This document shows, piece by piece, positions 4,146 through 60,815 of a DNA stretch of 64,000 nucleotides; position 1 is the first letter of the stretch, and every line of letters begins with the position of its first letter. The position numbers were made by a program, and so were the translations under genes. This DNA comes from Candidatus Glassbacteria bacterium. Its GTDB lineage: Bacteria; Gemmatimonadota; Glassbacteria; GWA2-58-10. The notes beneath the pieces are model-generated. The model did no database searches. It was not told the DNA's origin and saw only the letters and a list, made by a program, of their open reading frames with translations. The stretch lies in contig CAVVYO010000007.1 of NCBI GenBank assembly GCA_963752515.1, positions 112,660 to 176,659 on the forward strand, in the 5' to 3' direction.

Positions 4146-4253
4146 TTGAACCAGCGAAAAGTTTGGGAAAGTGGAAGGGGGGGTTGGGGGGAAGGCATCC
4201 CTGGGGGGAGGGAGGAAATCCACGATTGCCTCGGGATTTCCTCCCTCCCCCCC
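4146..4253. repeat. Module A full copy: conserved flank TGAACCAGCGAAAAGTTTGGGAAAGTGGAAGG plus long GC-rich palindrome GGGGGGAGGGAGGAAATCC...GGATTTCCTCCCTCCCCCC
   Basis: Near-identical to copy at 31478-31578; perfect long inverted repeat; compensatory variants in other copies. Confidence 0.75.
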
Positions 4254-4346
4254 GCCACAGCCGTAATTTTCTCATTCTGGTTGTCAAAGTCGGTACAAGG
4301 CGGTCCCACGGCCCGCGCGGGCCATGGCACGGAAGGAGTTCCCGCG

Positions 4347-5130: not shown

Positions 5131-5227
5131 ACTGCATAGTGAGTGAAACAACCCCTCGCACGTCCTTCGGGAGTGCGATGCAGGGGCGTCCGTACGGGCG
5201 CCCCTCGCTTATTATAAGGAGTTTTTT

Positions 5228-8914: not shown

Positions 8915-9271
8915 GGCGCGACCTCGAATTGGCCTGGAAAGGGAAGGGGTGGGGGGCGGAAAGTCGCCCTCGGGAAGATATCATTCTAATGCCTTAACAT
9001 CAACAAAGTTCCAATTTCCGGAAGGGTAGACCGGGATTGAAGCTGGAATCGATGCGGAGAAACTTCGGAGGGCGAAAAGCTTGTTCAGGAATTCATCAGC
9101 CAGATCATCAGGTTGAGGTCCCCGGCGGACTCGATCCGGCCTTAAACTAGCGAAAAAGTTTGGTTCATCCGGGAATTCCGGAGTGAGAGCTTCTGCCGAC
9201 CGGGGAGCCGTGACGAGACCCTTCCCGGGCTGGGGGACACAAATTCCCGGCGGTGCGGCTAACTCTTTGGT

Positions 9272-9340
9272 TATCATTATGTTTCTTCTGCTGTGACCAG
9301 CAGCAGCCAGAGTCTGGCGGCGCAAAACTTGCCGGCCACA
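9272..9340. repeat. Module C short copy (TTCTTCTGCTGTGACCAGCAGCAG hairpin plus GGCGGCGCAAAACTTGCCGGCC)
   Basis: Homologous to 31165-31235 and, reverse-complemented, to 16365-16400. Confidence 0.6.
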
Positions 9341-9370
9341 CCCCAACCTCTGGGGCGGCGTCTGGAGATT

Positions 9371-9520
9371 ACACCCCCCGGCGGCTGAGGCCGCCACCCC
9401 CCTCCAGGGGGGACTGTGTTTGCTCCGCCCGTGGATGTGGAGCAACTGGTTGGGTGTCCGGCTATGATTCCCCCCTGGAGGGGGGTGGCCCCGCTTGCAG
9501 CGGGGCCGGGGGGTGTCAGC
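9371..9520. repeat. Module B copy 1: ~150-bp palindromic element with terminal inverted repeats (T)TACACCCCCCGG ... CCGGGGGGTGTCA
   Basis: Internal hairpins GGCGGCTGAGGCCGCC, CCCCCCTCCAGGGGGG, GGCCCCGCTTGCAGCGGGGCC; copies at 16189 and 25884. Confidence 0.65.
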
Positions 9521-9552
9521 TTTTCCGGCCGCCTCAGCCGGCCCAGAGCTGG

Positions 9553-9586
9553 CCGCAGGGGCGTCCGGCCGGACGCCCCTACAGCC
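9553..9586. repeat. Module E: perfect palindrome GGGGCGTCCGGCCGGACGCCCCTAC
   Basis: Second copy at 29281-29308; partial at 16145-16165; related hairpin in NYN 5' UTR (5190-5212). Confidence 0.55.
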
Positions 9587-9639
9587 GTTTCCCGAGCTAT
9601 CTGGTTCGAATTACTTAACTTGCGGATGGGTAAGCGCAT

Positions 9640-9880
9640 TGTCTTGGGGAGCGTGGCGGAGTGGTCTTGCGGGCCGTGGCTGGAGGCAAGGGATAGCGGA
9701 GCCGTTGCCGCATAATTTCCATCGTGGCTACTGCTACGAAGCGAGAGAGCCCGGCAGGCCATCGCGTTGCAGCGCCAGGGATGGCGCGAAACGCGGCGAC
9801 CTCAAAAGGAGCGATTTACCTCCCGCAGGCACACCGCTGCCAATTGAAGAGCTGATTGATCCTTCAGCTTCGCGGCCTTG
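9640..9880. repeat. Module D copy 1: ~240-bp conserved non-coding element (candidate structured RNA or transposon end)
   Basis: About 85 percent identical by eye to reverse complement of 28925-29172, e.g. GGCAGGCCATCGCGTTGCAGCGCCAGGGATGGCGCGAAACGCGGCGACC in both; differences include indels not in multiples of three. Confidence 0.6.
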
Positions 9881-10018
9881 GCTTCACAAGACTCTTGCTA
9901 CTTCTGGTCACAGAAGTAGAAAAATCCGAAGGATTTACGGGATTAACAGAGAGTTGGAGATTGCCCTCCAGCCCTTTTTGGTCACAAAAAGAAGAACAGC
10001 CGTCAGGCTTCAGAAATT
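9866..10018. repeat. Module C long copy: hairpin TACTTCTGGTCACAGAAGTA, hairpin AAATCCGAAGGATTT, then GGTCACAAAAAGAAGAACAGCCGTCAGGCTTCAG
   Basis: Homologous to 16395-16535 and, reverse-complemented, to the tandem pair at 28745-28925. Confidence 0.65.
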
Positions 10019-10044
10019 GCCAAGCGATCCGCAGCCTCCGCCCC

Positions 10045-10344
10045 CTACTCCTCTTCCGCCCCCTCCAGCCAGTGCTGCAGCACCTCCACCAGCTTCCGGG
10101 CCTGGTCCGGGCTGGAGATGTTGAACTTGGACTGCTGGCGGTACTCCTCCCGGATCTTGCGGTAACGGCGGATGGTGTACATGTCCTTGCCGTACTCCTG
10201 CTTGCTGTTGTTCCACTGCTGGTAACGGAAGATCACGGTCGCCCAAGCGCCCTTGGTGAGGATCTCCTTGTCCAGCTCCTTGATCAGCTGGACCCCATCC
10301 TCCTCGTAATTGATCGTCAGGTCTTCCACATGGTCCGACATCAC
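10045..10344 (-). CDS. Small hypothetical protein (99 aa, K/E-rich), likely co-transcribed with upstream GH43-like gene
   Basis: AGGAGG 5 nt upstream of ATG 10344; non-repetitive diverse composition; lower GC codons. Confidence 0.5.
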   Translation of the reverse strand: MMSDHVEDLTINYEEDGVQLIKELDKEILTKGAWATVIFRYQQWNNSKQEYGKDMYTIRRYRKIREEYRQQSKFNISSPDQARKLVEVLQHWLEGAEEE

Positions 10345-11811: not shown

Positions 11812-12175
11812 TGAACTTCCTCCGGGATGATGGAGCGGATTCGAGCCGGGGCGCGCGTGTCCCGGGCGCAACAGGCGGTCAGGGGGGAGCAGGTCGCGGC
11901 TCCCGCGGGACAACAGAAAGCGGGCGATGAACCCGGCCGTCGCGGCGGCCGATGCCCATCCTGCCCGCCAGGTTATTTAAGCAGGCCCGGTCCTGCTGTC
12001 AAGTGGGTTCATGCGGGAGGGAAAATTGTTTTGCTTCCATCGGCAAGGAGTTATATAGTTCAAGCCACCGGCGGCGACAGCGCCGGACAGCCTCCCCGAG
12101 CATGTTCGCAGCGCCGCGCGGTCCCTGTCCCAGCTGGGCGGAACCGCGCTCACCCGACCGCAAGGAGACCGAGGG

Positions 12176-14631
12176 ATGCGCACTCACAGGTTCGAGCGGC
12201 TTTTCGCCGCGGCCCTGCTGGTTTCGGCCGCCACCCTGGCCCTGTCCGGCTGCCGTGGGCCGGAGCCGCGCCGGGCCGGACGACCCGGCCGCGGCATGGG
12301 AGGTGATTGGTCCGGGCGGCGGCGGCTCCACTTTCAACCCGACCTACAACCCCCGGGACCCGCAGAAAATCATCATCCGCTGCGACATGACCGGGACCTA
12401 TGTCACGGTCGATGGCGGCCAGTCCTGGCGGATGCACAATTTCCCGGGCGGGATGCGCACTTTCGCCTGGGACCCCTCCCGCCCGGCGGTGGTTTATGCC
12501 GGCGGGGATGGCCTCTACCGCTCCCGCGATGACGGCCGGAACTGGGAGCTGGTGTTCCCCGCTCCGGACCGGGTCACCGCCACCCGTTACCTGGGCGATC
12601 ATGCCGACTTCGCGATCCTCTCCGCGGACAATTTCCCGGAAGGGGCCTCGGTCACCGCGATCGGAGTCGACCCCCAGGACCCGCGAAGGCTGCTGGTGGG
12701 GCTGACCCGCAGCTCCGGCGGCGGGCCTGGCGCGGGGCTGTTCCTGTCGGAGGATGAGGGCGCGAGCTGGCGCGAGGTGGCCTCGCCGGCCCAGCCGGTG
12801 CTGGCGATTGCCGCCGATCCCCGGCCGGATGGCGAGCTGCTGGTGTTCACCCCGCGCGAGCTGAAGGTTTTCGACCGCTCCGATGGCTCCCTTGCCGACC
12901 GCCCCTTGCCGGAGGGTGTCGAGCGGCTGCAGTCGGTTTCCTGCGGCACGGATGCGGCCGGGAAAGTGTTCCGGGTCTACGCCCTGGCGCCGGTGGGCTG
13001 GGATGGCAAGCGGCACACCGGCGGGCTGTTTATCTCCGATGACGGCGGCCAGAGCTGGCGGCAGGCCACCGCCGGCCTGACCGAGGGCCTCGCGCCCGGG
13101 TCGGGACGATGGGGGGCTGACCCTGGACAACATCGCCTGCGCCGCGCTGGAGAGCGAGGTCGCCTACCTGGTCTGCAGCCGGTTCGATGCCGTGAACCCG
13201 CGGGGGGAGGTCGGCCACTGGTACGGGATCCTCAAGACCGAGGATGCCGGCGCGAGCTGGCGCTGGGTCTACCGCGCCGGGGGCGGCTCTCCCGACTACA
13301 CCATCCGCGATGGCTGGGAGGCCGAGAACCTGCAGGACTCCTGGGTCCGGCAGGCGTTCGCCGGGGAATTCATCCTGGCCCTCACCGCCGGGGTCTACCC
13401 CGCCGATGGCGACATCGCCAGCTTTACCGACTGGTACCGCACGATGCAGACCACCGATGGCGGGGCGACCTGGCGGGAGGTCTACAGCCGCCCCAACCCG
13501 GACAGCACGGTCACCAGCCGCGGGATGGATGTCACCACCTGCTATGGGGTCCATTTCGACCCGTTCGATCCGCAGCACCTGGCGGTGAGCTACACCGACA
13601 TCGGCTACTTCCACTCGTTCGATGGCGGCAAGTCGTGGCTGCGGTCGGTGGAGGGGCTGCCATCGGCCTGGGACAATACCTGCTACTGGATGCAGTTCGA
13701 TCCGGAGGTGGAGGGACGGCTCTGGTCGGTGTGGTCCTCCTGGCACGACATCCCGCGGCTGAAGATGGTGCGCAGCCCGCGCTGGCGGGAGTTCGCGGTG
13801 GGCGGAGTCGGTGTCTCGGACGATGGCGGCCGGACGTGGCGGGTCTCCAGCGATGGGTTGCCGGAGAACGCTCCCACCACCAGCATCGTGCTCGACCCCG
13901 ACACCCCGGCCGGCAACCGCACTCTCTATGTGACGGTCTTCGGCCAGGGCGTGTTCCGCTCCACCGATGACGGCCGCAGCTGGGAGCTCAAGAACCGTGG
14001 GCTGGGCGATCAACCGGCGGCCTGGGAGCTGAGCCTGGCCCGGGATGGCAACCTCTACCTGGTGGTGACCCAGATCATCGACCACCCGGACCCCCAAAAT
14101 CCGCAACTGCTGGATGGCGCGCTCTACCGCTCGGGCGACCGCGGCGAGACCTGGGTGCGGTTGCCCCTGCCCGCCGGCGTGCGTTTCCCGAACTCCCTGA
14201 CTGTCGATCCGGACCAGCCCCAGCGTCTCTATCTTTCCTGCTGGGCCAGCCTGCGCCAGGGGGACTATACCCGGGAGGGCGAGCCGGGCGGGCTGGCGGA
14301 GGCCGCGGGCGGGGCCTGGCTCTCGGAGGATGGCGGCGCCACCTGGCGGAACATCTTCGACCCCGCGGTCTATGTCTACGGCCTGACAGTCGACAGCCGT
14401 CACCCGGGAAGGCTCTACCTCAACACCTTCCAGAACGCCGCCTGGCGCAGCGATGACCGGGGCGAGAGCTGGGGCCGGATCGCCGGCTATGATTTCGAGT
14501 GGGGCCACCGCGTGGTGCTCGATCCCCACGACCCGGAGCAGGTCTATCTCACCACGTTCGGCGGCAGCGTGTTCCACGGCCGCCCGAATCTGCGCCGGGG
14601 AGGCGTCCGCCACCGCTCCGGAGGCGGCCAA
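12176..14631 (+). pseudogene. BNR/Asp-box repeat beta-propeller lipoprotein (GH74/sialidase-like fold) with at least two frameshifts and no in-frame stop before the next gene
   Basis: AAGGAG RBS plus lipoprotein signal MRTHRFERLFAAALLVSAATLALSGC in frame 2; protein-like translation shifts to frame 0 near 12255-12290 (..AAAWEVIGPGGGGSTFNP..DGGQSW) and to frame 1 near 13095-13105 (..LTLDNIACAALESEV..); many S/T-x-D-x-G-x-x-W repeats. Confidence 0.55.
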
Positions 14632-15984
14632 ATGAGCGCTATAAAAATTATGATACTGCTGTTCCTGGCGCTGGCCGGGCTGCCTGACATCGCTCCGGCC
14701 CTTTCCCCGGACCCGGTCCGCCGGGCGGTGGAACAGGAGTACCTGCAGCGCGCGGCGGAGGGAGCGGAGAAGTACCGCCAAGGCCCGGCCGAGCTGGTGC
14801 TGAAGGATCGCGCGGGCCATCCGCTGGCCGGGGCCACTGTCCGGGTGGAGCAGTTGCGGCACGAGTTCCTGTTCGGCAGCATCATTTTCGACCAACTGCG
14901 GGGCCAGGGCGACCCCTCCCGCGAGCAGGCCTACAAGGCGGCTTTCGCGAAGATTTTCAATTTCGCGGTCTTCCCGTTCTACTGGAAAGGCTATGAGCCG
15001 GAGGAGGGCCGGCCGCAGTGGGAGGCGATGACCCCGCTGCTCGAGTGGTGCCGCTCCCGGGGGATCACCACCAAGGGCCATCCGCTGGTCTGGACCGCCC
15101 CCTCGGGTTGGCCGGACTGGCTGGACCGTTACCCGCCGCAGGAGACGGTCGAGCTGCTCCAGCGACGGGTGACCGCGGTCACCGCCGGCTTCCGGGACCG
15201 GATCGAGATCTGGGATGTCTACAACGAGCCGGTCAACACCACGGCCTGGGGCTACCAGGGGCGCGAGTTCTGGGTGGATGACCGCCCGCTGGAGGAGTCC
15301 TCGCCGCTGGTGGAGCAGGCCTTTCATTGGGCCGAGCGCGGCAACCCCTCGGCGCACCTGATCCTCAACGAGTTCTACACCATCACCAAGCCCAACACCC
15401 GCGAGCGCTTCCACGCCCTGGTCAAGGGTCTGCTGGAAAAGGGAACGCCGATCCGCGGGCTGGGAATCCAGGGCCATGAGCCGCGCCAGTACTGGTATGA
15501 CCCGCGGGAGGTCTGGGCGGATTTCGACCGGCTGGGGGAGTTCGGGCTGCCGCTGCACCTGACCGAGGTGACTTTCACCTCTTCCGGCGACACCCTGCGC
15601 GGCTGGCGCGCCGGCGAGGGGGTCTGGGATGAACAGACCCAGGCCGAGTGCATCGAGCATTTCCTGCGGCTGGCGTTCGGACACCCCGCGGTGGCCTCGT
15701 TCAATTTCTGGGGCTTTTCCGACCGGGCGGTCTGGCTGAAAAAGGGCGGGCTGGTGGATGAGAACTACCGTCCCAAGCCCGCCTATGAGCGGGTGGACAG
15801 CCTGGTCAACCGCGAGTGGCACACCAGCCTGGCGGGCCGCACCGATGGGCAGGGCAAGCTTTCCTTCCGCGGCTTCCACGGCGACTACCGGGTGGAGGTC
15901 ACCACCGCCGATGGCCGGGTGCGCCGCTGGGAGCTGCCCCTGCGCAGCGACCGGGAAAACCGCTGGGTGCTGCTGGTGAAATGA
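14632..15984 (+). CDS. GH10 family glycoside hydrolase (beta-1,4-xylanase-like) with signal peptide
   Basis: GGAGG 7 nt upstream of ATG 14632; signal MSAIKIMILLFLALAGLP; GH10 acid/base motif WDVYNEP and nucleophile region LHLTEVTF. Confidence 0.8.
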   Translation: MSAIKIMILLFLALAGLPDIAPALSPDPVRRAVEQEYLQRAAEGAEKYRQGPAELVLKDRAGHPLAGATVRVEQLRHEFLFGSIIFDQLRGQGDPSREQAYKAAFAKIFNFAVFPFYWKGYEPEEGRPQWEAMTPLLEWCRSRGITTKGHPLVWTAPSGWPDWLDRYPPQETVELLQRRVTAVTAGFRDRIEIWDVYNEPVNTTAWGYQGREFWVDDRPLEESSPLVEQAFHWAERGNPSAHLILNEFYTITKPNTRERFHALVKGLLEKGTPIRGLGIQGHEPRQYWYDPREVWADFDRLGEFGLPLHLTEVTFTSSGDTLRGWRAGEGVWDEQTQAECIEHFLRLAFGHPAVASFNFWGFSDRAVWLKKGGLVDENYRPKPAYERVDSLVNREWHTSLAGRTDGQGKLSFRGFHGDYRVEVTTADGRVRRWELPLRSDRENRWVLLVK

Positions 15985-15987
15985 TCA

Positions 15988-16105
15988 TTCCGGGAGAGGG
16001 AGGAAAACCTTTTGGAAAAGGTTTTCCTCCCTCTCCCCGGACCTCTCTCTCTCTTTTCCCAAACTTCTTCGCAAGTTTCACGCGGGAGAACCGGCAACTG
16101 GCTGG
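15988..16105 (+). terminator. Module A copy acting as terminator-like hairpin for GH10 gene (hairpin GGGAGAGGGAGGAAAACC..GGTTTTCCTCCCTCTCCC then CTCTCTCTCTTTTCCCAAAC)
   Basis: Starts 4 nt after GH10 stop; stem carries compensatory substitutions relative to other copies; U-rich tract follows on the + strand. Confidence 0.6.
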
Positions 16106-16188
16106 AAGTGGGTCGAATTTGTTCGCCACCAACCAGGAGCGTAGCGACCCGGCCGGACGCCCCGGCTGATGAGGCGGTGCCCGGGCAT

Positions 16189-16337
16189 GACACCCCCCGG
16201 CAGCTGAAGCTGCCACCCCCCTCCAGGGGGGAGTAACAACGCTACACCCAACCGGTTGCGGCAACTCGACAGGTGCAGCCGGCACGGTCCCCCCTGGAGG
16301 GGGGTGGCCCCGCGGCAAGCGGGGCCGGGGGTGTAAG
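16189..16337. repeat. Module B copy 2, flanked by direct repeat GCCCGGGCAT (16179-16188 and 16338-16347)
   Basis: TIRs TGACACCCCCCGG / CCGGGGGTGTAA; same internal hairpins as copy 1; flanking 9-10 bp direct repeat resembles a target-site duplication. Confidence 0.65.
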
Positions 16338-16364
16338 GCCCGGGCATCGCACCAGCGGACGGGA

Positions 16365-16535
16365 GGCGGCATGCGAGTTTTGCGCCGCAAAAACTTTTGG
16401 TCCTTCTGGTCACAGCAGGAGAAAAATCCGCAGGATTTAGGGGATAAAGAACAAGCTGAAGATTTCCCTCCAGCCCTTTTGGGTCACAAAAAGAAGAACA
16501 GCCTGTCAGGCTTCAGGGATTTTCAAGATAGCTGG
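16365..16535. repeat. Module C copy (reverse orientation relative to 9866-10018)
   Basis: GGCGGCATGCGAGTTTTGCGCCGC, CCTTCTGGTCACAGCAGGAG, AAATCCGCAGGATTT, GGGTCACAAAAAGAAGAACAGCCTGTCAGGCTTCAG. Confidence 0.6.
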
Positions 16536-16726
16536 GGCTCCCGCCCCGCCGTGGCTTCCCCGAATGTCCGGATGAGCCTTAATACAGGGGATTGTGTTTT
16601 TTCTGCATTTTCAACACTTATGTAACTGAGTGCTGTGCATCGTCCGACAGGATGCAGAAATGCAAGGGGCCGCATCCTGTTCGAGGTGCGGCCCCTCTTA
16701 GTTTCATTCCAGTATGCCGCTTGGCC

Positions 16727-17548: not shown

Positions 17549-19005
17549 TCACCGTTTCAGTCCCGGCCCGCGGGCATCTTCGGTGGCCGGGGCTTGCCGC
17601 CCGGACCGGGGCAGCCACATTTTCTCGATCTCCTCCAGCGACTTCTCCTTGGTCTCGGGCACGAACAGGATCACGAACAGCACGGTCACCGCGCACATCA
17701 CGGCATAGAGCCAGAACGGGAAGCCGTGGTGGAAGTGTTCCACCAGCCAGGGGTCCTCGTTGAGCATCGGGAAGCTCTGGGAGACCACGAAATTGGCCCC
17801 CCACAGGCAGAACGTGGCCAGCGCCATCGCCCGGCCGCGGATGATGGTCGGGAAAATCTCCGAGAGCACCACCCACGCCACCGGGCCCAGCGACAGGGCG
17901 AAGCAGGCGATGTAGCCCAGGGCGAACGGCAGCACCCACAACGCGGCCTCGCCCAGGTAGGCCGAGATCCCCAGGGCGGTCAGGCAGATTCCCATCCCCG
18001 CCGCGCCCCAGATCATCAGCGGGCGGCGGCCCAGGCGGTCCACCGTCGTAAAGGGCGAAGACCGTGAAGCCCAGGTTGACCACTCCGATCGCGATGGTCT
18101 GCAGCAGGGCGGTATCGGTGCCGGAGCCCAGGCCCTTGAAAATCTCCGGGGCATAGTACATGAAGACGTTGATCCCGGTCACCTGTTGCAGGATCGCCAG
18201 CACCACTCCGATCACCAGCACGATCCGCATCCCGGGATGAAAGAGCTGGGCGAGCGAGCCGCTCTCGTGCGACAGGGCCTCGCGGATCTCGCCCAGCTCC
18301 CGCCGGGCCTGGACTGTGCCGCCGGCGCGCTCCAGGATCGCCAGGGCCTCGTCCTCCCGCCCGCGGGCGCAGAGCCAGCGCGGGGACTCGGGGACAAAGA
18401 ACAGCAGCACCAGCAGCACCAGCGCCGGCAGGGCCTCCGAGCCGAACATCCAGCGCCAGCCCACCGCGACATTCCATTCCAGGCCGCCCAGCCCGGCGAT
18501 GAAGTAGTTGACGAAGTAGACCAGCAGGATTCCGATCACGATCGCGAACTGGTTGATGGTCACCATCCGGCCGCGCACCGGGGCCGGGCTGATCTCGGCG
18601 ATGTACATCGGCGACGGTCATCGAGGCCGCGCCGACCCCGATCCCGCCGATGATCCGGTAGATCACGAACCAGAAGATGTCCGGCGGCAGGGCGGTGCCG
18701 ACCGCCGAAATCAGGTAGAACACCGCCGCCAGCAGCAGCACTTTCTTGCGGCCCAGCCGGTCGCTCAGCACCCCGGCCCCGGCCACTCCCAGCATGCAGC
18801 CGACCAGGGCCGAGCTGGCCGCCCAGCCCACCCAGGCCGGGGAAAGCGCGAACCGCTGCTGCAGGAAGCCGATCGCCCCCGAGATCACCGCCGTGTCATA
18901 GCCGAACAGCAGCCCGCCCAGGGCCGCCACGATGCTCACCCCGGCCACATAGGCCAGGCTGCCCTCCCGCGCCCCGCCCGCTTGCCGCTGCCGCCGCTCT
19001 TCCAT
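17549..19005 (-). pseudogene. MFS sugar porter (XylE/GalP-like) interrupted by two apparent frameshifts
   Basis: Three consecutive minus-strand ORFs in different frames each translate to sugar-porter segments (GYDTAVISGAI, PMYIAEISPAPVRGRMVTINQF, PESPRWL, VLSEIFPTIIRGRAMALATF, PETKEKSLEEIEKMW); junctions near 18600 and 18060-18154. Confidence 0.6.
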
Positions 19006-19055
19006 CCGCTCGCTCCTCCATGATGGTTGTCGCCTCGCACCTGTTCTGCCGACTG

Positions 19056-19136
19056 ATCCGGGGGAGGGGAGAAATCCCGTTGGTCGGGATTTCCTCCCTC
19101 CCCCCGGACCCTCCTTCCTCTTTCCCAAACTTTTTA
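19056..19136. repeat. Module A copy (GGGGGAGGGGAGAAATCCC..GGGATTTCCTCCCTCCCCCC plus CCTCCTTCCTCTTTCCCAAACTTTTT)
   Basis: Palindrome with compensatory changes; conserved flank. Confidence 0.65.
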
Positions 19137-21987: not shown

Positions 21988-22920
21988 TCAGAACCTCCGC
22001 AACAGGCCGGCAGCGGTGGTGTCATACGGGCCACCGGTGGTATCGCCCGGGACACTGGTGGTATCACCCGGGACACCGGTGGTATCGCCCGGCACGCCGG
22101 TGGTGTCACCCGGGACACCGGTGGTGTCACCCGGGACACCATCCAGCTCGATCTCGACCATCGTCTCCTCATCCTCGGTCACATCGGCCTCGACCTGGCC
22201 GACCACTGTCCCGGTGGTGTCGCGGACCAGGATCGTGAACGGGCCGGGCGGCAGGAAGCCGAGGGTGAACCCGCCATCCTCGCCGACAAAGGTCGAGGTG
22301 ACGGTGTCGGCGCCGCTGACAGCATAGACCACCGCCCCGCGCGGGGCATCCGGCAGCTCACCGCTGACCTTGCCGACGCTGTCGGCGGTGACCAGGCGCA
22401 AGGTGGGGTCGAAGTCGTAATTATCCGCCCCCTCCTGGGCCTGGACCGAGCGGGCGACATCGAAGTCCACCACCACCTCGGTGGTTTGGTCCTCCTCCAC
22501 CATGAAGCCATCCTGGTTCTCGACCATGGCGGCATTGCCGGGCACTGTCAGCTGATAGCTCTGGGTGTCGGCCGTCACCACGGTCGCCTGCCCGATGCTG
22601 ATCCGGACCGCATCGTAGAAACCGGTGTCGATCTCGGCCTCGGCCAGCAACTCGGACTCGCCGCCGGTGAGCTGCAGCAGGTCCAGGCTCACCGGCTGCT
22701 GGGAGAGGGTCACCCATTGGTCGTTGCGACGCGCCTCCACCCGGGTGATGGTCAGGTTGAACTGATCGAAAGCCGCCGGGGCATCGGCCAGGTAGATCGC
22801 CAGGGTGCCCTGCAGGCCGGTCCCCGGTCCGACCGGGGTCGTGTCATCATCATCGCAGGCCGCCGCCAGCGCGAGCAACGGCCAGGCCAATACTGTCAGA
22901 TACTTGAATGCGACTCGCAA
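21988..22920 (-). CDS. DUF4382-like lipoprotein with C-terminal tandem GVPGDTT heptad repeats
   Basis: AAGGAGG 6 nt upstream of TTG start at 22918-22920; lipobox LLALAAAC; body resembles DUF4382 (TLAIYLADAPAAFDQFNLTITRVEA). Confidence 0.6.
   Translation of the reverse strand: MRVAFKYLTVLAWPLLALAAACDDDDTTPVGPGTGLQGTLAIYLADAPAAFDQFNLTITRVEARRNDQWVTLSQQPVSLDLLQLTGGESELLAEAEIDTGFYDAVRISIGQATVVTADTQSYQLTVPGNAAMVENQDGFMVEEDQTTEVVVDFDVARSVQAQEGADNYDFDPTLRLVTADSVGKVSGELPDAPRGAVVYAVSGADTVTSTFVGEDGGFTLGFLPPGPFTILVRDTTGTVVGQVEADVTEDEETMVEIELDGVPGDTTGVPGDTTGVPGDTTGVPGDTTSVPGDTTGGPYDTTAAGLLRRF
22018..22143 (-). repeat. 21-nt tandem repeat (about 6 units, CCGGTGGTGTCACCCGGGACA-like) encoding GVPGDTT repeats
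   Basis: Direct inspection: near-identical 21-mers in tandem inside the DUF4382-like CDS. Confidence 0.7.
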
Positions 22921-23011
22921 CTTCCGCCTCCTTGATCCTGATTGTTCCGCACCTGGCCCCCGGCTTCCGTCCGGACCATGCCGGGGACTCTCCCCGCAAA
23001 CCCGCCCGAAC

Positions 23012-23051
23012 CTGTACCGATCTGGCACAACCCTGTGCCGGATCGGTACAG
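23012..23051. promoter_or_regulatory. 18-bp inverted repeat CTGTACCGATCTGGCACA-ACCC-TGTGCCGGATCGGTACAG upstream of DUF4382-like gene; contains TGGCAC-N5-TGTGC resembling a sigma-54 -24/-12 element
   Basis: Near-perfect palindrome (1 mismatch) about 95 nt upstream of TTG start; GG-to-GC spacing is 11 rather than the canonical 10. Confidence 0.35.
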
Positions 23052-23406
23052 GCGCGATGACCACCCTGTTCGGGCGGCCGGTGGGCGGGGCCGGAGGGAG
23101 GGGGCCTCCCTGCCCGCACTCCGACCGTGCGGCTCTCAGGTCTGCAAGGCGAATGCCACGCGGGGGGTGTTAGTGTGCTAACCTGCAAATTTACAAAGAA
23201 TTAGATGTTTCTGGCGGCGGGTGGTCCGGGGCGGGCGCGGCTTTGCGGGAAAAATGATAAAATGCTGAAAAAAAGGTATCAGCTTTTTAAAATATTGCTT
23301 ATCAAAGACCTGAAGCGATCGGGCGGCGGTAAAGCCGAGCTCAAGGAACCGGTTCCCGGGGCCGCGCGAAACATCTGATAGTCTTCACAGCGTTGTCAAA
23401 TCGGGA

Positions 23407-25883: not shown

Positions 25884-26036
25884 TGACACCCCCCGGCAGC
25901 TGAAGCTGCCACCCCCCTCCAGGGGGGAGCTTGCTTGCTTCGCCCGTGGAGTTGCTGCAACCGGTCGGGTGGCAGGCTGTCAAGTCCCCCCTGGAGGGGG
26001 GATGGTCCCGATTCTATCGGGACCAGGGGGGTGTGA
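25884..26036. repeat. Module B copy 3
   Basis: TGACACCCCCCGGCAGCTGAAGCTGCCACCCCCCTCCAGGGGGGAG ... CCCCCCTGGAGGGGGG..GGGACCAGGGGGGTGTGA. Confidence 0.65.
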
Positions 26037-28696: not shown

Positions 28697-28744
28697 GGCC
28701 GGCGGGCGGCCCGGGGTCGGGAGAGTCCCGGTTTCTTTGATATT

Positions 28745-28925
28745 CCCGTAAATCCGGCGGATTTTTCTCCTGCTGTGACCAAGTAGCAAGAGTCTTTAAC
28801 AGCAGGGCCGCGAAGGGGGAGGGAAAGCTCCAGCTTGTTCTTTATCCCGTAAATCCTTCGGATTTTTCTACTTCTGTGACCAGAAGTAGCAAGAGTCTTT
28901 AAAGGCCAAGGCCGCGAAGCTGAAA
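28745..28925. repeat. Two tandem module C units (about 100-bp period) in reverse orientation
   Basis: Each unit: CCCGTAAATCCnnnGGATTTTTCT + (C/A)CT(G/T)CTGTGACCA(A)GTAGCAAGAGTCTTTAA; loops differ (GGC vs TTCG) while stems are conserved. Confidence 0.65.
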
Positions 28926-29280: not shown

Positions 29281-29308
29281 GTAGCGTCCGGCCGGACGCC
29301 CCTACCCT
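29281..29308. repeat. Module E copy 2 (GCGTCCGGCCGGACGCCCCTAC)
   Basis: Identical palindrome core to 9553-9586. Confidence 0.55.
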
Positions 29309-29446: not shown

Positions 29447-29530
29447 CACAGCAAAAAGTTTGGGAAGGTGAGAGGGGGTCCGGGGGAGAGCGGAAACCTT
29501 TTTCAAAAGGTTTCCGCTCTCCCCCGGAAA
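29447..29530 (-). terminator. Module A copy positioned as terminator for the decarboxylase gene (on minus strand: hairpin then CCTTCCCAAACTTTTTGCTG)
   Basis: Palindrome GGGGGAGAGCGGAAACC..GGTTTCCGCTCTCCCCC (compensatory changes) 10 nt after the stop of the minus-strand CDS. Confidence 0.6.
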
Positions 29531-31060: not shown

Positions 31061-31164
31061 CGGTGAACGAGGGCCTGATCCAAGATAAGCACATCCCGGC
31101 CGCGGGGGAAGAGCGGTCAGCCGCCCTGCCGGCGGAAAATTCCCAATTGAGCAGCGATCTCTTT

Positions 31165-31235
31165 GATTGTCATGATGTTTCATCTTCTGTGACCAGAAGA
31201 AGCGAGAGGCGGTGCGGCGCAAAACTTGCCGCCAG
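31165..31235. repeat. Module C short copy
   Basis: TTGTCATGATGTTTCATCTTCTGTGACCAGAAGAAGC..GGCGGTGCGGCGCAAAACTTGCCGCC, homologous to 9272-9340. Confidence 0.6.
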
Positions 31236-31477
31236 TGGTGGTCTTCAATTGGCCGTTTGTAATCGCTGGTTCTTTACGCTACCCGCCTGCGTGGGTAGCG
31301 CTGACGCGCATCTGCCAGTCAGTTTTTGCCTCCCCTGATGCCGAACATGGGATTGAGAGCAATGTAACCGCTGCTTTGCCGTGGCTCATATCCCGATTAC
31401 ATCGGGACTGCCGCGGTGGCGGCCAAAGGCCGCCTGAGGGTGAAAGGCAAAGACTTTGGAATGTCACCCATTAATCA

Positions 31478-31578
31478 ATAAAAAGTTTGGGAAAGTGGAA
31501 GGGGGGATTGGGGGGAAGGCATCCCTGGGGGGAGGGCGGAAAACCTTTTCCAAAAGGTTTCCGCCCTCCCCCCGGGAA
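31478..31578 (-). terminator. Module A full copy positioned as terminator for heparinase-like gene
   Basis: Near-identical to 4146-4253; on minus strand hairpin is followed by CCTTCCACTTTCCCAAACTTTTTATTG 15 nt after the CDS stop. Confidence 0.65.
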
Positions 31579-53765: not shown

Positions 53766-53810
53766 CCTCAAGTTGAAGGGAGGCTCGCCCCCCTTTTTTA
53801 CGCTCCGGGG
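53766..53810 (+). terminator. Rho-independent terminator after DUF4091-like gene
   Basis: GGGGGCGAGCCCTCAAGTTGAAGGGAGGCTCGCCCCC then TTTTTTAC. Confidence 0.6.
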
Positions 53811-53875
53811 GGAAGGCGGAAACCTTTGGGGAATGGTTTCCGTCCTCTGCCCGGAACAACTGGTCGTCTTTTCGG
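53811..53875. repeat. Module A-like imperfect hairpin (GGGGGGAAGGCGGAAACC..GGTTTCCGTCCTCTGCCC) with F-type flank CCGGAACAACTGGTCGTCTTTTCGG
   Basis: Degenerate palindrome related to module A; flank shared with 59695-59735. Confidence 0.45.
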
Positions 53876-59873: not shown

Positions 59874-60815
59874 ATGTTCGAGCGCGTGGTTCAAGCGCTG
59901 CGCAAGGCGGCGCTGGTGATTTTCCGCAACCTCTGGCTGTTCCTGTTCGCGACGATCTACGCCCTGCTGGGCCCGCTGCTGGTGCTGGGCGGGACCGGCC
60001 TGCCGGTGCTGCTGTGGTGGGTCGCCGGAAGGCCGCTGCATCCCGCGCTGCTGGCGACCGACCCCCTGGCGTTCCTGCTCCGGCACTGGCAGTTGATTCT
60101 CTACGCCCTGCTGGGCGGGATGCTCGGCTACGCGCTCTACCTGGTGATCACGATCTTCTACCGCGGGGCGCTGACCGGCACGGTCGCCCGGGCGGTCCAG
60201 ACCGGCCGGGATGGTTCGGAGACGCGGCGCCTGCCCGCCGCGACTTTCCTGCGCGAGGGCCGGGACAATTTCGCCGGCAGCCTGGGGACCGCGACCCTGG
60301 CCTACCTGCTGCCGTTGCCGGTCCTGCTGCCGCTGCTGGGGCTGCTGACCCTGGGGGCGTTGCGCCTGCCGAAGCTGCTGTCCACTGCGTTCCTGGCCGG
60401 GGGGCTGCCGGAGCTGACCGCTCCGCTGATCATCCTGGCTGCGGCCGGGGTGCTGCTGCTGCTGCTGACCGTTCTCCTCACCGCCCTGGCCGGGCTGTGG
60501 TACCGTTACGCCCTGGCCGCCCTCTGCGCCGAGGGCCTGCCCGCCTCCCGGGCGATGGGGGCCGCGCTGGAGTTCTTCCGCCGGCGTTGGCGGCTGGTGC
60601 TGATCCTGATGCTGTTCTGGCTGGTGCTGGGGCTGGCGTTCGGCGCGGCCTCCTGGCCGTTCGGCTTCCTGGTGGACCAGCTCAGCGGGCTGGCCCGGGG
60701 GATCGTCCGCGGCTTCCTGCTGCTGATCGCCCCGGCGACAGTCGCCCTGGGCTTTTTCCTGGAACTGTGGATGAGCACGGCGATGGTGGTGCTCTATCTG
60801 GACAATCGTCCGTAG
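59874..60815 (+). CDS. Polytopic membrane protein of unknown function
   Basis: AAGGGGG RBS; about 8 hydrophobic helices; stop abuts rimO. Confidence 0.55.
   Translation: MFERVVQALRKAALVIFRNLWLFLFATIYALLGPLLVLGGTGLPVLLWWVAGRPLHPALLATDPLAFLLRHWQLILYALLGGMLGYALYLVITIFYRGALTGTVARAVQTGRDGSETRRLPAATFLREGRDNFAGSLGTATLAYLLPLPVLLPLLGLLTLGALRLPKLLSTAFLAGGLPELTAPLIILAAAGVLLLLLTVLLTALAGLWYRYALAALCAEGLPASRAMGAALEFFRRRWRLVLILMLFWLVLGLAFGAASWPFGFLVDQLSGLARGIVRGFLLLIAPATVALGFFLELWMSTAMVVLYLDNRP

What the first reader, a model, noticed from the sequence alone, without database searches (positions are those of the whole stretch)
16179..16347. Module B: 150-bp palindromic MITE-like element with TGACACCCCCCGG terminal inverted repeats; copy 2 flanked by a 9-10 bp direct repeat GCCCGGGCAT
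Three copies (9371-9520, 16189-16337, 25884-26036) share perfect TIRs and internal hairpins (GGCAGCTGAAGCTGCC, CCCCCCTCCAGGGGGG, GGCCCCGCnnGCAGCGGGGCC). A 10-nt direct repeat on both sides of copy 2 looks like a target-site duplication and implies transposition of a non-autonomous element. A 10-mer recurring by chance within 170 bp is unlikely.
Basis: seen in the sequence. Interest (0 to 1): 0.6.

Follow-up and report, generated by a model that had tools for sequence, protein, structure and literature searches.

The report
Four-hairpin palindromic intergenic repeat family
A ~146-bp palindromic DNA repeat sits three times between genes and can fold into a four-armed hairpin; it looks like a REP/RIME-type interspersed repeat, and its supposed transposition footprint at one copy is better read as an extra stem of the palindrome.

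Summary
Three copies (9371-9516, 16190-16334, 25886-26034) share two inverted ~45-nt arms around a ~57-nt asymmetric centre. Every copy folds, on either strand, into a four-way junction (z about -8 to -9.6). All six stem substitutions are compensatory. GCCCGGGCAT occurs only twice in the window, both times flanking copy 2.

The MITE/TSD reading is only partly supported.
- Copies 1 and 3 have no flanking direct repeat of 5 nt or more.
- The repeat at copy 2 is the self-complementary core of a 13-bp outer stem, so inverted repeat and direct repeat coincide.
- Copy 1 and inverted copy 2 share homologous flanks on both sides, and a fourth copy on another contig shares about 430 nt with copy 1. The duplicated unit is therefore larger than the TIR-delimited element.
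- The window encodes no transposase.

Best reading: a new family of REP/REPIN-, BIME/RIME-like structured mosaic repeats. They are non-autonomous, make no TSD, and appear homogenised by gene conversion.

One lead is worth following. Arms with the same syntax (CACCCC run, spacer, C-run/loop/G-run hairpin) bracket DUF559 (Vsr-fold endonuclease) genes in a hot-spring MAG, Deinococcus, Azospirillum, Sinorhizobium and others. Module B may be the gene-less form of such elements. This could not be tested in the source genome, which the look-up tools would not return.

The parts
9371..9516 (.). Module B copy 1. P1 9371-9379/9508-9516; hpA 9380-9395 (GGCGGCTGAGGCCGCC); P3 9397-9412/9470-9485; centre 9413-9469; hpB 9487-9507.
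16190..16334 (.). Module B copy 2. P1 16190-16198/16327-16334 (G5); hpA 16199-16214; P3 16216-16231/16289-16304; centre 16232-16288, reverse-complemented relative to copies 1 and 3; hpB 16306-16326.
25886..26034 (.). Module B copy 3. P1 25886-25894/26026-26034; hpA 25895-25910; P3 25912-25927/25986-26001; centre 25928-25985; hpB 26004-26024 (GGTCCCGATTCTATCGGGACC, two compensatory pairs). Its flanks are unrelated to those of copies 1 and 2.
16174..16186 (.). Left strand of outer stem P0 of copy 2 (GCGGTGCCCGGGC). It contains the left copy of the 10-nt direct repeat (16179-16188).
16338..16350 (.). Right strand of outer stem P0 of copy 2 (GCCCGGGCATCGC). It contains the right copy of the 10-nt direct repeat (16338-16347).
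9160..9590 (.). Larger mosaic segment around copy 1. It is shared, in inverted orientation, with the copy 2 region and almost identically with a fourth copy on another contig. It contains the TGTGACCAG...GCGGCGCAAAACT module (about 9263-9334) on the left and CCGCCTCA...GGGGCGTCCGGCCGGACGCCCC (9557-9580) on the right.
16125..16440 (.). Larger mosaic segment around copy 2, the inverted counterpart of 9255-9600.

Best explanation
Module B is a family of about 146-bp non-coding, strictly intergenic, structure-defined palindromic repeats of the REP/REPIN and BIME/RIME kind.

Anatomy. Each copy has two inverted arms around a ~57-nt asymmetric centre. An arm consists of the outer run ACACCCCCC, a small variable hairpin, and the inner palindrome CCCCCCTCCAGGGGGG. 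Either strand can fold, as ssDNA, as a cruciform or as RNA, into a four-way junction.

How I think it works. It is a non-autonomous DNA element that is recognised through its hairpin arms by an enzyme encoded elsewhere. It is propagated without target-site duplication, partly as a piece of larger mosaic segments of 0.3-0.45 kb. Its arms are kept alike by gene conversion or template switching. The 10-nt direct repeat at copy 2 is the self-complementary core of an added 13-bp outer stem, not a transposition footprint.

What is shown: the anatomy, the fold, the compensatory changes, the lack of direct repeats at the other copies, the flank homology, the fourth copy, and the same arm syntax around DUF559 genes in other bacteria.

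What is inferred: the mode of copying, the gene conversion, and the identity of the trans-acting enzyme. My candidate is a DUF559/Vsr-fold endonuclease, with roughly 0.3 probability on its own.
For: - Copy number: three copies, six arms, far above chance.
- Position: all copies lie in intergenic spacers, in two cases outside terminator-like hairpins of the flanking genes.
- Fold: the same four-way junction in every copy on both strands. RNA MFE -105 to -116 kcal/mol, z -8.0 to -9.6; DNA z -8.3 to -9.4.
- Covariation: 20 arm pairs are 100% paired, 3 pairs changed on both sides, and none is broken.
- Conservation pattern: arms about 95% alike, centre only 65-74% alike. This is the REPIN-like pattern.
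- Direct repeats: none at copies 1 and 3. At copy 2 the inverted repeat (13 bp) is longer than the direct repeat (10 nt), and P0 forms in the MFE fold (-77.3 kcal/mol).
- Flanks: copy 1 and copy 2 flanks are homologous in inverted orientation only. The fourth copy (P0146) matches 9160-9588.
- Gene conversion: the (+)-strand left arm of copy 2 is identical to that of copy 3 over 44 nt, although copy 2 is inverted by its centre and flanks.
- Cross-phylum arm syntax: hot-spring MAG JAUQPW01, where a DUF559 gene lies between two such elements. Among 12 DUF559 loci, 9 have a strict C-rich hairpin within 200 nt (3.7/kb, against 0-0.17/kb in unrelated DNA), and 11 show arms by eye. Deinococcus psychrotolerans has 55-nt TIRs of this syntax around DUF559 between paaD and paaZ, and Deinococcus sp. 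QL22 has that site empty.
- Gene-less forms: present in Aeromonas, Rahnella and D. aetherius.
Against: - Only three copies (plus one inferred from a protein) could be examined, because the source genome could not be read beyond the window.
- No copy shows a presence/absence polymorphism, so mobility itself is unproven.
- The link to DUF559 elements rests on shared architecture and short shared motifs, not on demonstrated homology. The window has no DUF559 gene.
- The small hairpins hpA and hpB have no counterpart in most DUF559-flanking arms.
- The 10-nt direct repeat is itself improbable by chance (3e-4), and a transposon that targets palindromes would give the same picture at copy 2.
- The outer stems at copies 1 and 3 are not significant (7 bp including 2 G-T pairs, p about 0.1; 5 bp, not significant).
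- The strand carrying the 'forward' centre folds 3-8 kcal/mol better as RNA, which hints at an RNA-level role.
Confidence: 0.55

Rival explanations
1. Classical MITE. A deletion derivative of an IS, mobilised in trans by a DDE transposase that binds the TGACACCCCCCGG inverted repeats and creates a 9-10-bp target-site duplication. Copy 2 keeps its TSD and the others have lost theirs.
For: The element has terminal inverted repeats beginning TG...CA, is small and non-coding, and is multi-copy. The 10-nt direct repeat abutting copy 2 is unique in the window, and P is about 3e-4 for random sites. If the target was an 18-bp palindrome, one insertion would explain both the direct and the inverted repeat.
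Against: - Two of three copies have no direct repeat of 5 nt or more.
- Decay cannot explain this. At the homologous flank positions copy 1 has 1/10 and 3/10 matches to the 'TSD', while the adjacent 8+2 nt are identical.
- Homology between copies 1, 2 and 4 runs through the supposed element boundary on both sides.
- No transposase is encoded in the window, and no IS with these ends turned up in the genome, metagenome, viral or plasmid scans.
- The compensatory changes in the internal hairpins are not expected for a decaying MITE.
Confidence: 0.1
2. Family of structured non-coding RNAs or cis-acting RNA elements (mRNA 3'-end stabilisers, insulators or sRNA paralogues). Under this reading the conserved four-way junction is selected at the RNA level.
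For: - Very stable folds with compensatory pairs.
- The right arm of copy 3 matches the Rfam Whalefall-1 model with the same two-hairpin-plus-AGGGNG layout, at 25.8 bits and E 6e-5 in a 221-nt search. Weinberg et al. rated that motif a true RNA (PMC2864571).
- The strand with the 'forward' centre is 3-8 kcal/mol more stable.
- The related half-element in Comamonadaceae lies co-oriented with flanking genes in the four loci where this could be read.
Against: - No Rfam family reaches its gathering score; Whalefall-1 needs 37 bits.
- All arm stems are pure Watson-Crick on both strands, which is the signature of a DNA palindrome. Strand-specific G-U pairs are absent.
- There is no promoter-like or terminator-like signal belonging to the element, and copies 2 and 3 lie beyond the terminator-like hairpins of neighbouring genes.
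- The centre and the hairpin order are not kept in a fixed orientation.
- The same arm syntax brackets protein genes elsewhere.
Confidence: 0.2
3. Not mobile at all. On this reading the copies are remnants of local segmental (inverted) duplications of intergenic DNA, kept as palindromes by template-switch correction. They may be used by the host as binding or cruciform sites for nucleoid or topology proteins, as proposed for BIMEs.
For: - Copies 1, 2 and 4 share 0.3-0.43 kb including flanks.
- The block replacement that created a perfect outer stem at copy 2 looks like a quasi-palindrome template-switch event.
- The same spacers contain several other repeat modules.
Against: Copy 3 shares only the TIR-delimited core, with no flank homology (p>0.2). 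The core is therefore a discrete unit that reached an unrelated site. The same core motif occurs in distant phyla, which local duplication cannot explain.
Confidence: 0.15

Closest known systems
REPINs / REP sequences with RAYT transposases (Bertels & Rainey 2011, PMC3116915; Di Nocera et al. 2013, PMC3733652)
   Same: Two highly conserved inverted units, each containing a hairpin, separated by a less conserved spacer. Strictly extragenic, non-autonomous, with no TSD. The arms evolve by compensatory change. In a related system the putative enzyme gene is itself bracketed by the repeats.
   Different: The arms are about 45 nt with two hairpins each, against 20-40 nt with one. There is no GTAG or CGTC tag. 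No RAYT (Y1 transposase) was seen. The candidate partner has a Vsr/PD-(D/E)XK fold, not HUH.
Mosaic intergenic elements: BIMEs of E. coli, RIMEs / Sm-repeats of Sinorhizobium (Osteras et al. 1995, cited in PMC2573895), mosaic SNRs of Deinococcus radiodurans (PMC1978522)
   Same: Modular palindromic units combine with other repeat modules in the same intergenic spacers, in either orientation. In Sinorhizobium, elements with C-run/G-run double-hairpin arms and a centre that can be inverted flank a DUF559 gene (L059).
   Different: There is no sequence identity beyond the short C/G-run syntax. The window's family has extra hairpins (hpA, hpB) and an 18-bp inner stem. I could not read the RIME paper to confirm that the L059 elements are RIMEs.
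Bacterial MITEs with long stem-loops (Correia/NEMIS, ERIC, RUP)
   Same: About 100-150 bp, with terminal inverted repeats, intergenic, and able to fold into one long hairpin.
   Different: Those have consistent short TSDs (for example TA for Correia) and, for several, an identified IS partner. Here the TSD criterion fails.
Whalefall-1 RNA motif (Rfam RF01762; Weinberg et al. 2010, PMC2864571)
   Same: One arm has the same layout: pyrimidine-rich/purine-rich hairpin, second hairpin, trailing AGGGNG.
   Different: The score is below Rfam's gathering threshold (25.8 against 37 bits). Only one of six arms is hit in the 17-kb search. Whalefall-1 has not been described as half of a palindrome.
Intergenic C6-hairpin-C6-loop-G6 element of Comamonadaceae (found here; I know of no published description)
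   Same: It shares ACACCCCCCG, a small hairpin, and CCACCCCCCTCCAGGGGGG (about 30 nt of identical syntax) with a Module B left arm. It also shows compensatory changes.
   Different: It is asymmetric: a single arm followed by a different stem-loop. It sits co-oriented with the flanking genes, often directly after a stop codon.

Membership tests
MITE (non-autonomous DDE transposon) | Terminal inverted repeats at both ends of every copy | tested here: met
   ACACCCCCCGG / CCGGGGGGTGT is present in all three copies, with one indel or mismatch in copies 2 and 3.
MITE (non-autonomous DDE transposon) | Target-site duplication of constant length flanking the copies | tested here: not met
   A direct repeat of 10 nt occurs only at copy 2; copies 1 and 3 have at most 3-4 nt. 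The copy 2 repeat is part of a 13-bp inverted repeat.
MITE (non-autonomous DDE transposon) | Homology between copies ends at the TIRs | tested here: not met
   Copies 1, 2 and 4 are homologous for 50-110 nt or more beyond both ends. This holds only for copy 3.
MITE (non-autonomous DDE transposon) | Autonomous IS with the same TIRs in the genome | tested here: inconclusive
   None in the window and none in the genome, metagenome, viral or plasmid scans. The rest of the source genome could not be read.
REPIN / REP-RAYT | Two inverted REP units separated by a spacer, forming a long hairpin; arms more conserved than spacer | tested here: met
   Arms about 95% identical, centre 65-74%; folds.
REPIN / REP-RAYT | Unpaired GTAG (or CGTC) tag next to the REP hairpin | tested here: not met
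   The arms begin (T/G)ACACCCCCC and carry no GTAG or CGTC tag.
REPIN / REP-RAYT | A RAYT (Y1/HUH transposase) gene in the genome, flanked by the REPs | not testable with these tools
   There is no such gene in the window, and the source genome was withheld from look-ups.
Whalefall-1 RNA (RF01762) | Score at or above Rfam's gathering threshold (37 bits) | tested here: not met
   Best score 25.8 bits, at 25985-26030. Copies 1 and 2 are not hit.
BIME/RIME-type mosaic intergenic repeat | Palindromic units combined with other repeat modules, in both orientations, only between genes | tested here: met
   Module B co-occurs with the TGTGACCAG module, the GGGGCGTCCGGCCGGACGCCCC palindrome and the GGGAGGGAGGAAA palindrome in spacers 8915-10045 and 15985-16726. 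All copies are intergenic.
DUF559-bracketing palindromic elements (class proposed here) | Arm syntax: outer (A)CACCCC run, short spacer, C-run/loop/G-run hairpin, mirrored on the other side | tested here: met
   Module B arms fit this syntax, with a hairpin inserted in the spacer. Compare L001, L002, L050, L055, L056 and L054. This is a resemblance of architecture; no model-based test was done.
DUF559-bracketing palindromic elements (class proposed here) | A DUF559 gene bracketed by Module B arms in the same genome | not testable with these tools
   tblastn finds no DUF559 gene in the window.

The most novel reading that the evidence does not exclude
Module B may be the gene-less (MITE/REPIN-like) form of a cross-phylum class of small selfish elements that, as far as I know, has not been described. 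Full-length members would carry a DUF559 (Vsr-fold PD-(D/E)XK) endonuclease between long structured inverted arms of C-run/G-run hairpins. The endonuclease would recognise the extruded hairpin or four-way junction and drive copying (homing-like or REP/RAYT-like) without target-site duplication. That would assign a function to DUF559 and a common origin to RIME-like repeats, the Comamonadaceae element and possibly the Whalefall-1 'RNA'.
Probability: 0.3. Interest if true: 0.7.

Novelty: new member of a known kind. Interest (0 to 1): 0.4.

Why it matters
As it stands, this is one more family of bacterial intergenic palindromic repeats. It is useful to know for annotation, because these copies spawn spurious ORFs such as P0146. 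It is also a caution: a direct repeat made of a self-complementary sequence next to a palindrome is not evidence of transposition.

The wider interest is the recurring arm syntax around DUF559 genes in Deinococcus, Alpha-, Beta- and Gammaproteobacteria, cyanobacteria and a hot-spring MAG. If that association reflects a nuclease-repeat partnership analogous to RAYT-REPIN, it would give a testable function to a very common domain of unknown function. It would also explain a class of repeats that has been known since the 1990s without a mechanism.

Tried and rejected
- Rfam at gathering and permissive thresholds: no family. The miRNA-type hits are generic hairpin matches.
- Empty-site comparison: not possible. 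The nearest homologues are only 52-66% identical, and their contigs (GC 54-56%) carry no Module B.
- Collection scans with the 16- and 19-mers returned numbers that I estimate to be near chance (17 metagenome and 18 viral stretches). Only the composite motif is informative.
- Searches of Module B against plasmids and of the Aeromonas element against E. coli found nothing useful.
- Degenerate TSDs at copies 1 and 3: none.
- Outer-stem 'covariation' at copies 1 and 3: considered, then downgraded as not significant.
- attC, retron, IS200/IS605-end, tRNA-like and terminator readings were rejected. The required partner genes or consensus motifs (R/L boxes, RT, TnpA, T-runs) are absent.
- A covariance model of DUF559-flanking arms was abandoned because MAFFT did not keep the hairpins in register.
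- The orientation of the hpB loop was too short to be informative.

Full report
**1. Observation**

The three copies exist at 9371-9516, 16190-16334 and 25886-26034. The repeat finder groups them (D5, D17). The inner 16-mer CCCCCCT(CC/GG)AGGGGGG occurs six times, against 0.09 expected. A profile of the six arms finds no further arm in the window.

GCCCGGGCAT occurs only at 16179-16188 and 16338-16347. The TIRs are slightly less perfect than the finding states: copy 1 starts TTACAC, copy 2 ends GGGGGTGTAA, and copy 3 ends CCAGGGGGGTGTGA.

**2. Anatomy**

Each copy reads as follows:
- ACACCCCCC (P1)
- hairpin A (GGCRGC-TGAR-GCYGCC)
- A
- CCCCCCTCCAGGGGGG (P3, left)
- a 57-58-nt centre
- CCCCCCTGGAGGGGGG (P3, right)
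- T
- hairpin B (8-9 bp)
- GGGGGGTGT (P1)

All copies fold into the same four-way junction on either strand, as RNA or as DNA. RNA MFE is -105 to -116 kcal/mol with z -8.0 to -9.6. DNA z is -8.3 to -9.4.

Across the arms, 20 pairs are 100% paired. All six stem substitutions form three compensatory pairs. With only three sequences the power is low: 19 of 500 shuffles reach the observed value.

The arms are about 95% alike, while the centres are only 65-74% alike. The centre of copy 2 aligns with the others only as its reverse complement (37/57 and 42/58, scores 17 and 22, against 0 and 7 in the forward sense).

**3. Context**

The window has 67% GC and is full of polysaccharide-utilisation genes: sulfatase, GH43, GH10/BNR, GH38, GH67-like, DUF1080 and a TonB-dependent receptor. 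GC3 frame analysis places all three copies in intergenic spacers.
- Copy 2 lies between convergent genes.
- Copies 1 and 3 lie between co-directional minus-strand genes.
- Copies 2 and 3 lie beyond terminator-like hairpins of their neighbours.
- No promoter-like or terminator-like signal belongs to the element itself.
- The window encodes no transposase, integrase, RAYT or DUF559 gene.

**4. The 'TSD'**

Within 16-nt flanks, copy 1 has a longest direct repeat of 4 nt and copy 3 of 3 nt. Copy 2 has a direct repeat of 10 nt. It also has an inverted repeat of 9 Watson-Crick pairs, or 13 pairs with one G-T: GCGGTGCCCGGGC/GCCCGGGCATCGC.

For random site pairs in this window, P(DR>=10) = 3e-4, P(IR>=9) = 9e-4 and P(IR with G-T >=10) = 5e-3. 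The core GCCCGGGC is self-complementary, so any inverted repeat built on it is also a direct repeat. The 13-bp stem forms in the MFE fold of the extended copy (-77.3 kcal/mol, z -8.9).

The decisive evidence comes from the flanks. Copy 1(+) and copy 2(-) have homologous flanks on both sides:
- Left flank: about 80 nt at about 70% identity, containing TTCTNCTGCTGTGACCAG...GCGGCGCAAAACT (score 58, 0/500 shuffles).
- Right flank: CA + 10 nt + CCGCCTCA ... GGGGCGTCCGGCCGG (score 31, p = 0.002).
- In the same orientation there is no similarity.

At the positions of the copy 2 repeat, copy 1 carries unrelated sequence (1/10 and 3/10 matches), embedded between identical neighbours. Module B was therefore already in place when these two segments diverged, and the repeat/stem of copy 2 arose later by a local block replacement. 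A quasi-palindrome template switch would do this; that step is inference.

The flanks of copy 3 are unrelated to either of the others (p>0.2). The 146-bp core is thus a discrete module, but it is not always the unit that gets duplicated.

**5. A fourth copy**

I translated the stop-free frames of the three copies and searched the protein collection. This found one spurious 282-aa ORF, P0146, on a 1,158,748-bp NCBI/ENA contig. Its residues 67-211 match window 9588-9160 in two frames, almost identically, across Module B and both flanks. Homology stops beyond that.

I take this to be a paralogous segment of about 430 nt, probably from the same genome, because no close relative exists in the collection. 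The contig could not be fetched.

**6. Arm shuffling**

By its centre and its flanks, copy 2 is inverted. Yet in plus-strand coordinates it still has hairpin A on the left and hairpin B on the right. Its left arm is identical to that of copy 3 over 44 nt, and its right arm is copy-1-like.

I infer that the arms are exchanged between copies by gene conversion. This is possible in either orientation, because the sequences on both sides of each small hairpin are the same in both arms.

**7. Relatives elsewhere**

A 32-nt pattern scan of 185,579 species genomes hit only one hot-spring MAG, JAUQPW01. There the core takes the form AACACCCCCCTAACCCCCCTCCAGGGGGG...CCCCCCTGGAGGGGGGTTAGGGGGGTGTT. It occurs once alone (L002) and twice as direct copies bracketing a 131-aa DUF559 gene (L001; PF04480, E 3.5e-31).

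The metagenome and viral scans gave hit numbers that I estimate to be near chance. They nevertheless revealed a composite motif: ACAC-C6, then 3 nt or a small hairpin, then (A)C6-TCCA-G6. One group carrying it is an intergenic element of Comamonadaceae, present in Acidovorax, Variovorax, Diaphorobacter and Comamonas. It resembles a single Module B arm followed by another stem-loop, and it has its own compensatory changes.

**8. DUF559 association**

I took DUF559 genes from the plasmid collection without regard to their flanks and inspected 12 loci.
- Eleven show C-run/G-run hairpin arms within about 100 nt, often on both sides.
- With a strict definition (perfect 6-bp stem, at least 5 C), 9 of 12 loci qualify. 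The density is 3.7/kb near the gene, 0.46/kb farther away, and 0-0.17/kb in unrelated DNA.
- In D. psychrotolerans the gene sits between 55-nt inverted repeats (…CACTCACCCCCTCCCAGCCTCCCCCCTCAAGGGGGAGGAG…). These are inserted exactly after the paaD stop codon. Deinococcus sp. QL22 has paaD-paaZ without the element.
- Gene-less versions with the Module B layout (arm, short centre, arm) occur in Aeromonas caviae, with related arrangements in Rahnella and D. aetherius.
- In Sinorhizobium, a DUF559 gene is flanked by two complete elements whose centres are inverted relative to each other.

I found no paper describing this association. Related background:
- A Vsr-like homing endonuclease family is known (I-Bth0305I, PMC3239194).
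- Mosaic repeats are known in Deinococcus (PMC1978522).
- Mosaic repeats are known in Sinorhizobium (RIMEs, cited in PMC2573895).
- REP/REPIN-RAYT systems are well described (PMC3116915, PMC3733652).

**9. Rfam**

Nothing reaches a gathering score. The right arm of copy 3 resembles the Whalefall-1 motif in layout (25.8 against 37 bits). Weinberg et al. listed Whalefall-1 as a candidate ncRNA known only from whale-fall metagenomes. The DUF559-flanking arms do not hit that model.

**10. Verdict**

The element is a structured, non-autonomous, intergenic palindromic repeat of the REP/REPIN and BIME/RIME kind, and it is a new family.

The TSD, and with it the evidence for cut-and-paste transposition, does not hold. 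The best mechanistic guess is propagation and homogenisation through the hairpin arms by an enzyme encoded elsewhere. A DUF559 endonuclease is a specific and testable candidate, with probability about 0.3. An RNA-level role cannot be excluded, at about 0.2.

Noticed in passing
window 4206-4255, 15992-16041, 19059-19108, 29480-29529, 31528-31577, 53806-53855 (and 4152-4192, 29449-29489, 31476-31516): A second repeat family: about 50-nt palindromes GGGAGRGGGAGGAAAACCTTTT..AAAAGGTTTTCCTCCCTCYCCC. Three of them are preceded by AAAAAGTTTGGGAAAGTGGAAGGGGGG. Several sit directly after stop codons (for example after the GH10 gene at 15984), which looks terminator-like (D6/D14/D18/D20).
   Followed up: partly
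window 9263-9334, 9889-9983, 16403-16485, 28744-28898 (two copies), 31159-31231: A third repeat module containing TGGTCACAG(C/A)AG and the hairpin AAATCCNNNGGATTT. On the minus strand, two copies begin a short ORF MITKE(L/I)AA..GI that looks like the N-terminus of an HTH regulator. It may be the remnant 5' end of a duplicated gene, or a shared promoter/leader (D10/D19, 53, 71, 72, 98).
   Followed up: partly
window 9557-9580, 29284-29305; partial at 16149-16163 and 5180-5205: A 22-24-nt perfect GC palindrome, GGGGCGTCCGGCCGGACGCCCC, recurs in the same spacers as Module B.
   Followed up: no
window 17549-18154 and 18016-19128; 11952-13970 against 13192-15984: Possible frameshifted genes. The MFS sugar-transporter ORF matches only the C-terminal third of the Pfam profile. 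The BNR/GH10 gene overlaps a 672-aa ORF in another frame. Homologues cover only 50% of the 930-aa query.
   Followed up: no
window 22011-22157: Five or more tandem 21-nt coding repeats (CACCGGTGGTATCGCCCGGGA) lie inside the minus-strand DUF4382/CarboxypepD_reg gene 21988-23064 (D3, 25).
   Followed up: no
L006, L012/L016/L019, L038 2500-2590, L039 2500-2580: The Comamonadaceae 'half' element (C6, small hairpin, C6-loop-G6, long stem-loop) lies co-oriented with the flanking genes in the four loci where this could be read. In two of them it follows a stop codon directly (hypE in Acidovorax). The two C6 runs and one G6 run could form alternative pairings.
   Followed up: partly
L058 121-291: Next to the DUF559 element of Azospirillum lipoferum plasmid AZO_p3 there is a near-threshold match to the Caulobacter sRNA family CC2171 (69.7 against 75 bits, E 1e-12).
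   Followed up: no
L002 2592-3152: The solo element in MAG JAUQPW01 lies about 330 nt upstream of a Uma2-family (PD-(D/E)XK) endonuclease gene (PF05685, E 1.7e-37). This is another small nuclease family often found in many copies.
   Followed up: no
window 59874-60815 (P0125): This 313-aa protein of unknown function is found with identical sequence on short Logan contigs from runs ERR15459707 and ERR12035931. On one of them the upstream neighbour is different (a 246-aa AF_1680-family gene). This suggests that related strains with rearranged synteny exist in public reads.
   Followed up: no
L049, L055, L056 (Deinococcus plasmids): In three Deinococcus species the DUF559 element sits inside the hpa (4-hydroxyphenylacetate) gene cluster, between different gene pairs. 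This points either to repeated insertion into the same region or to rearrangement around it.
   Followed up: no
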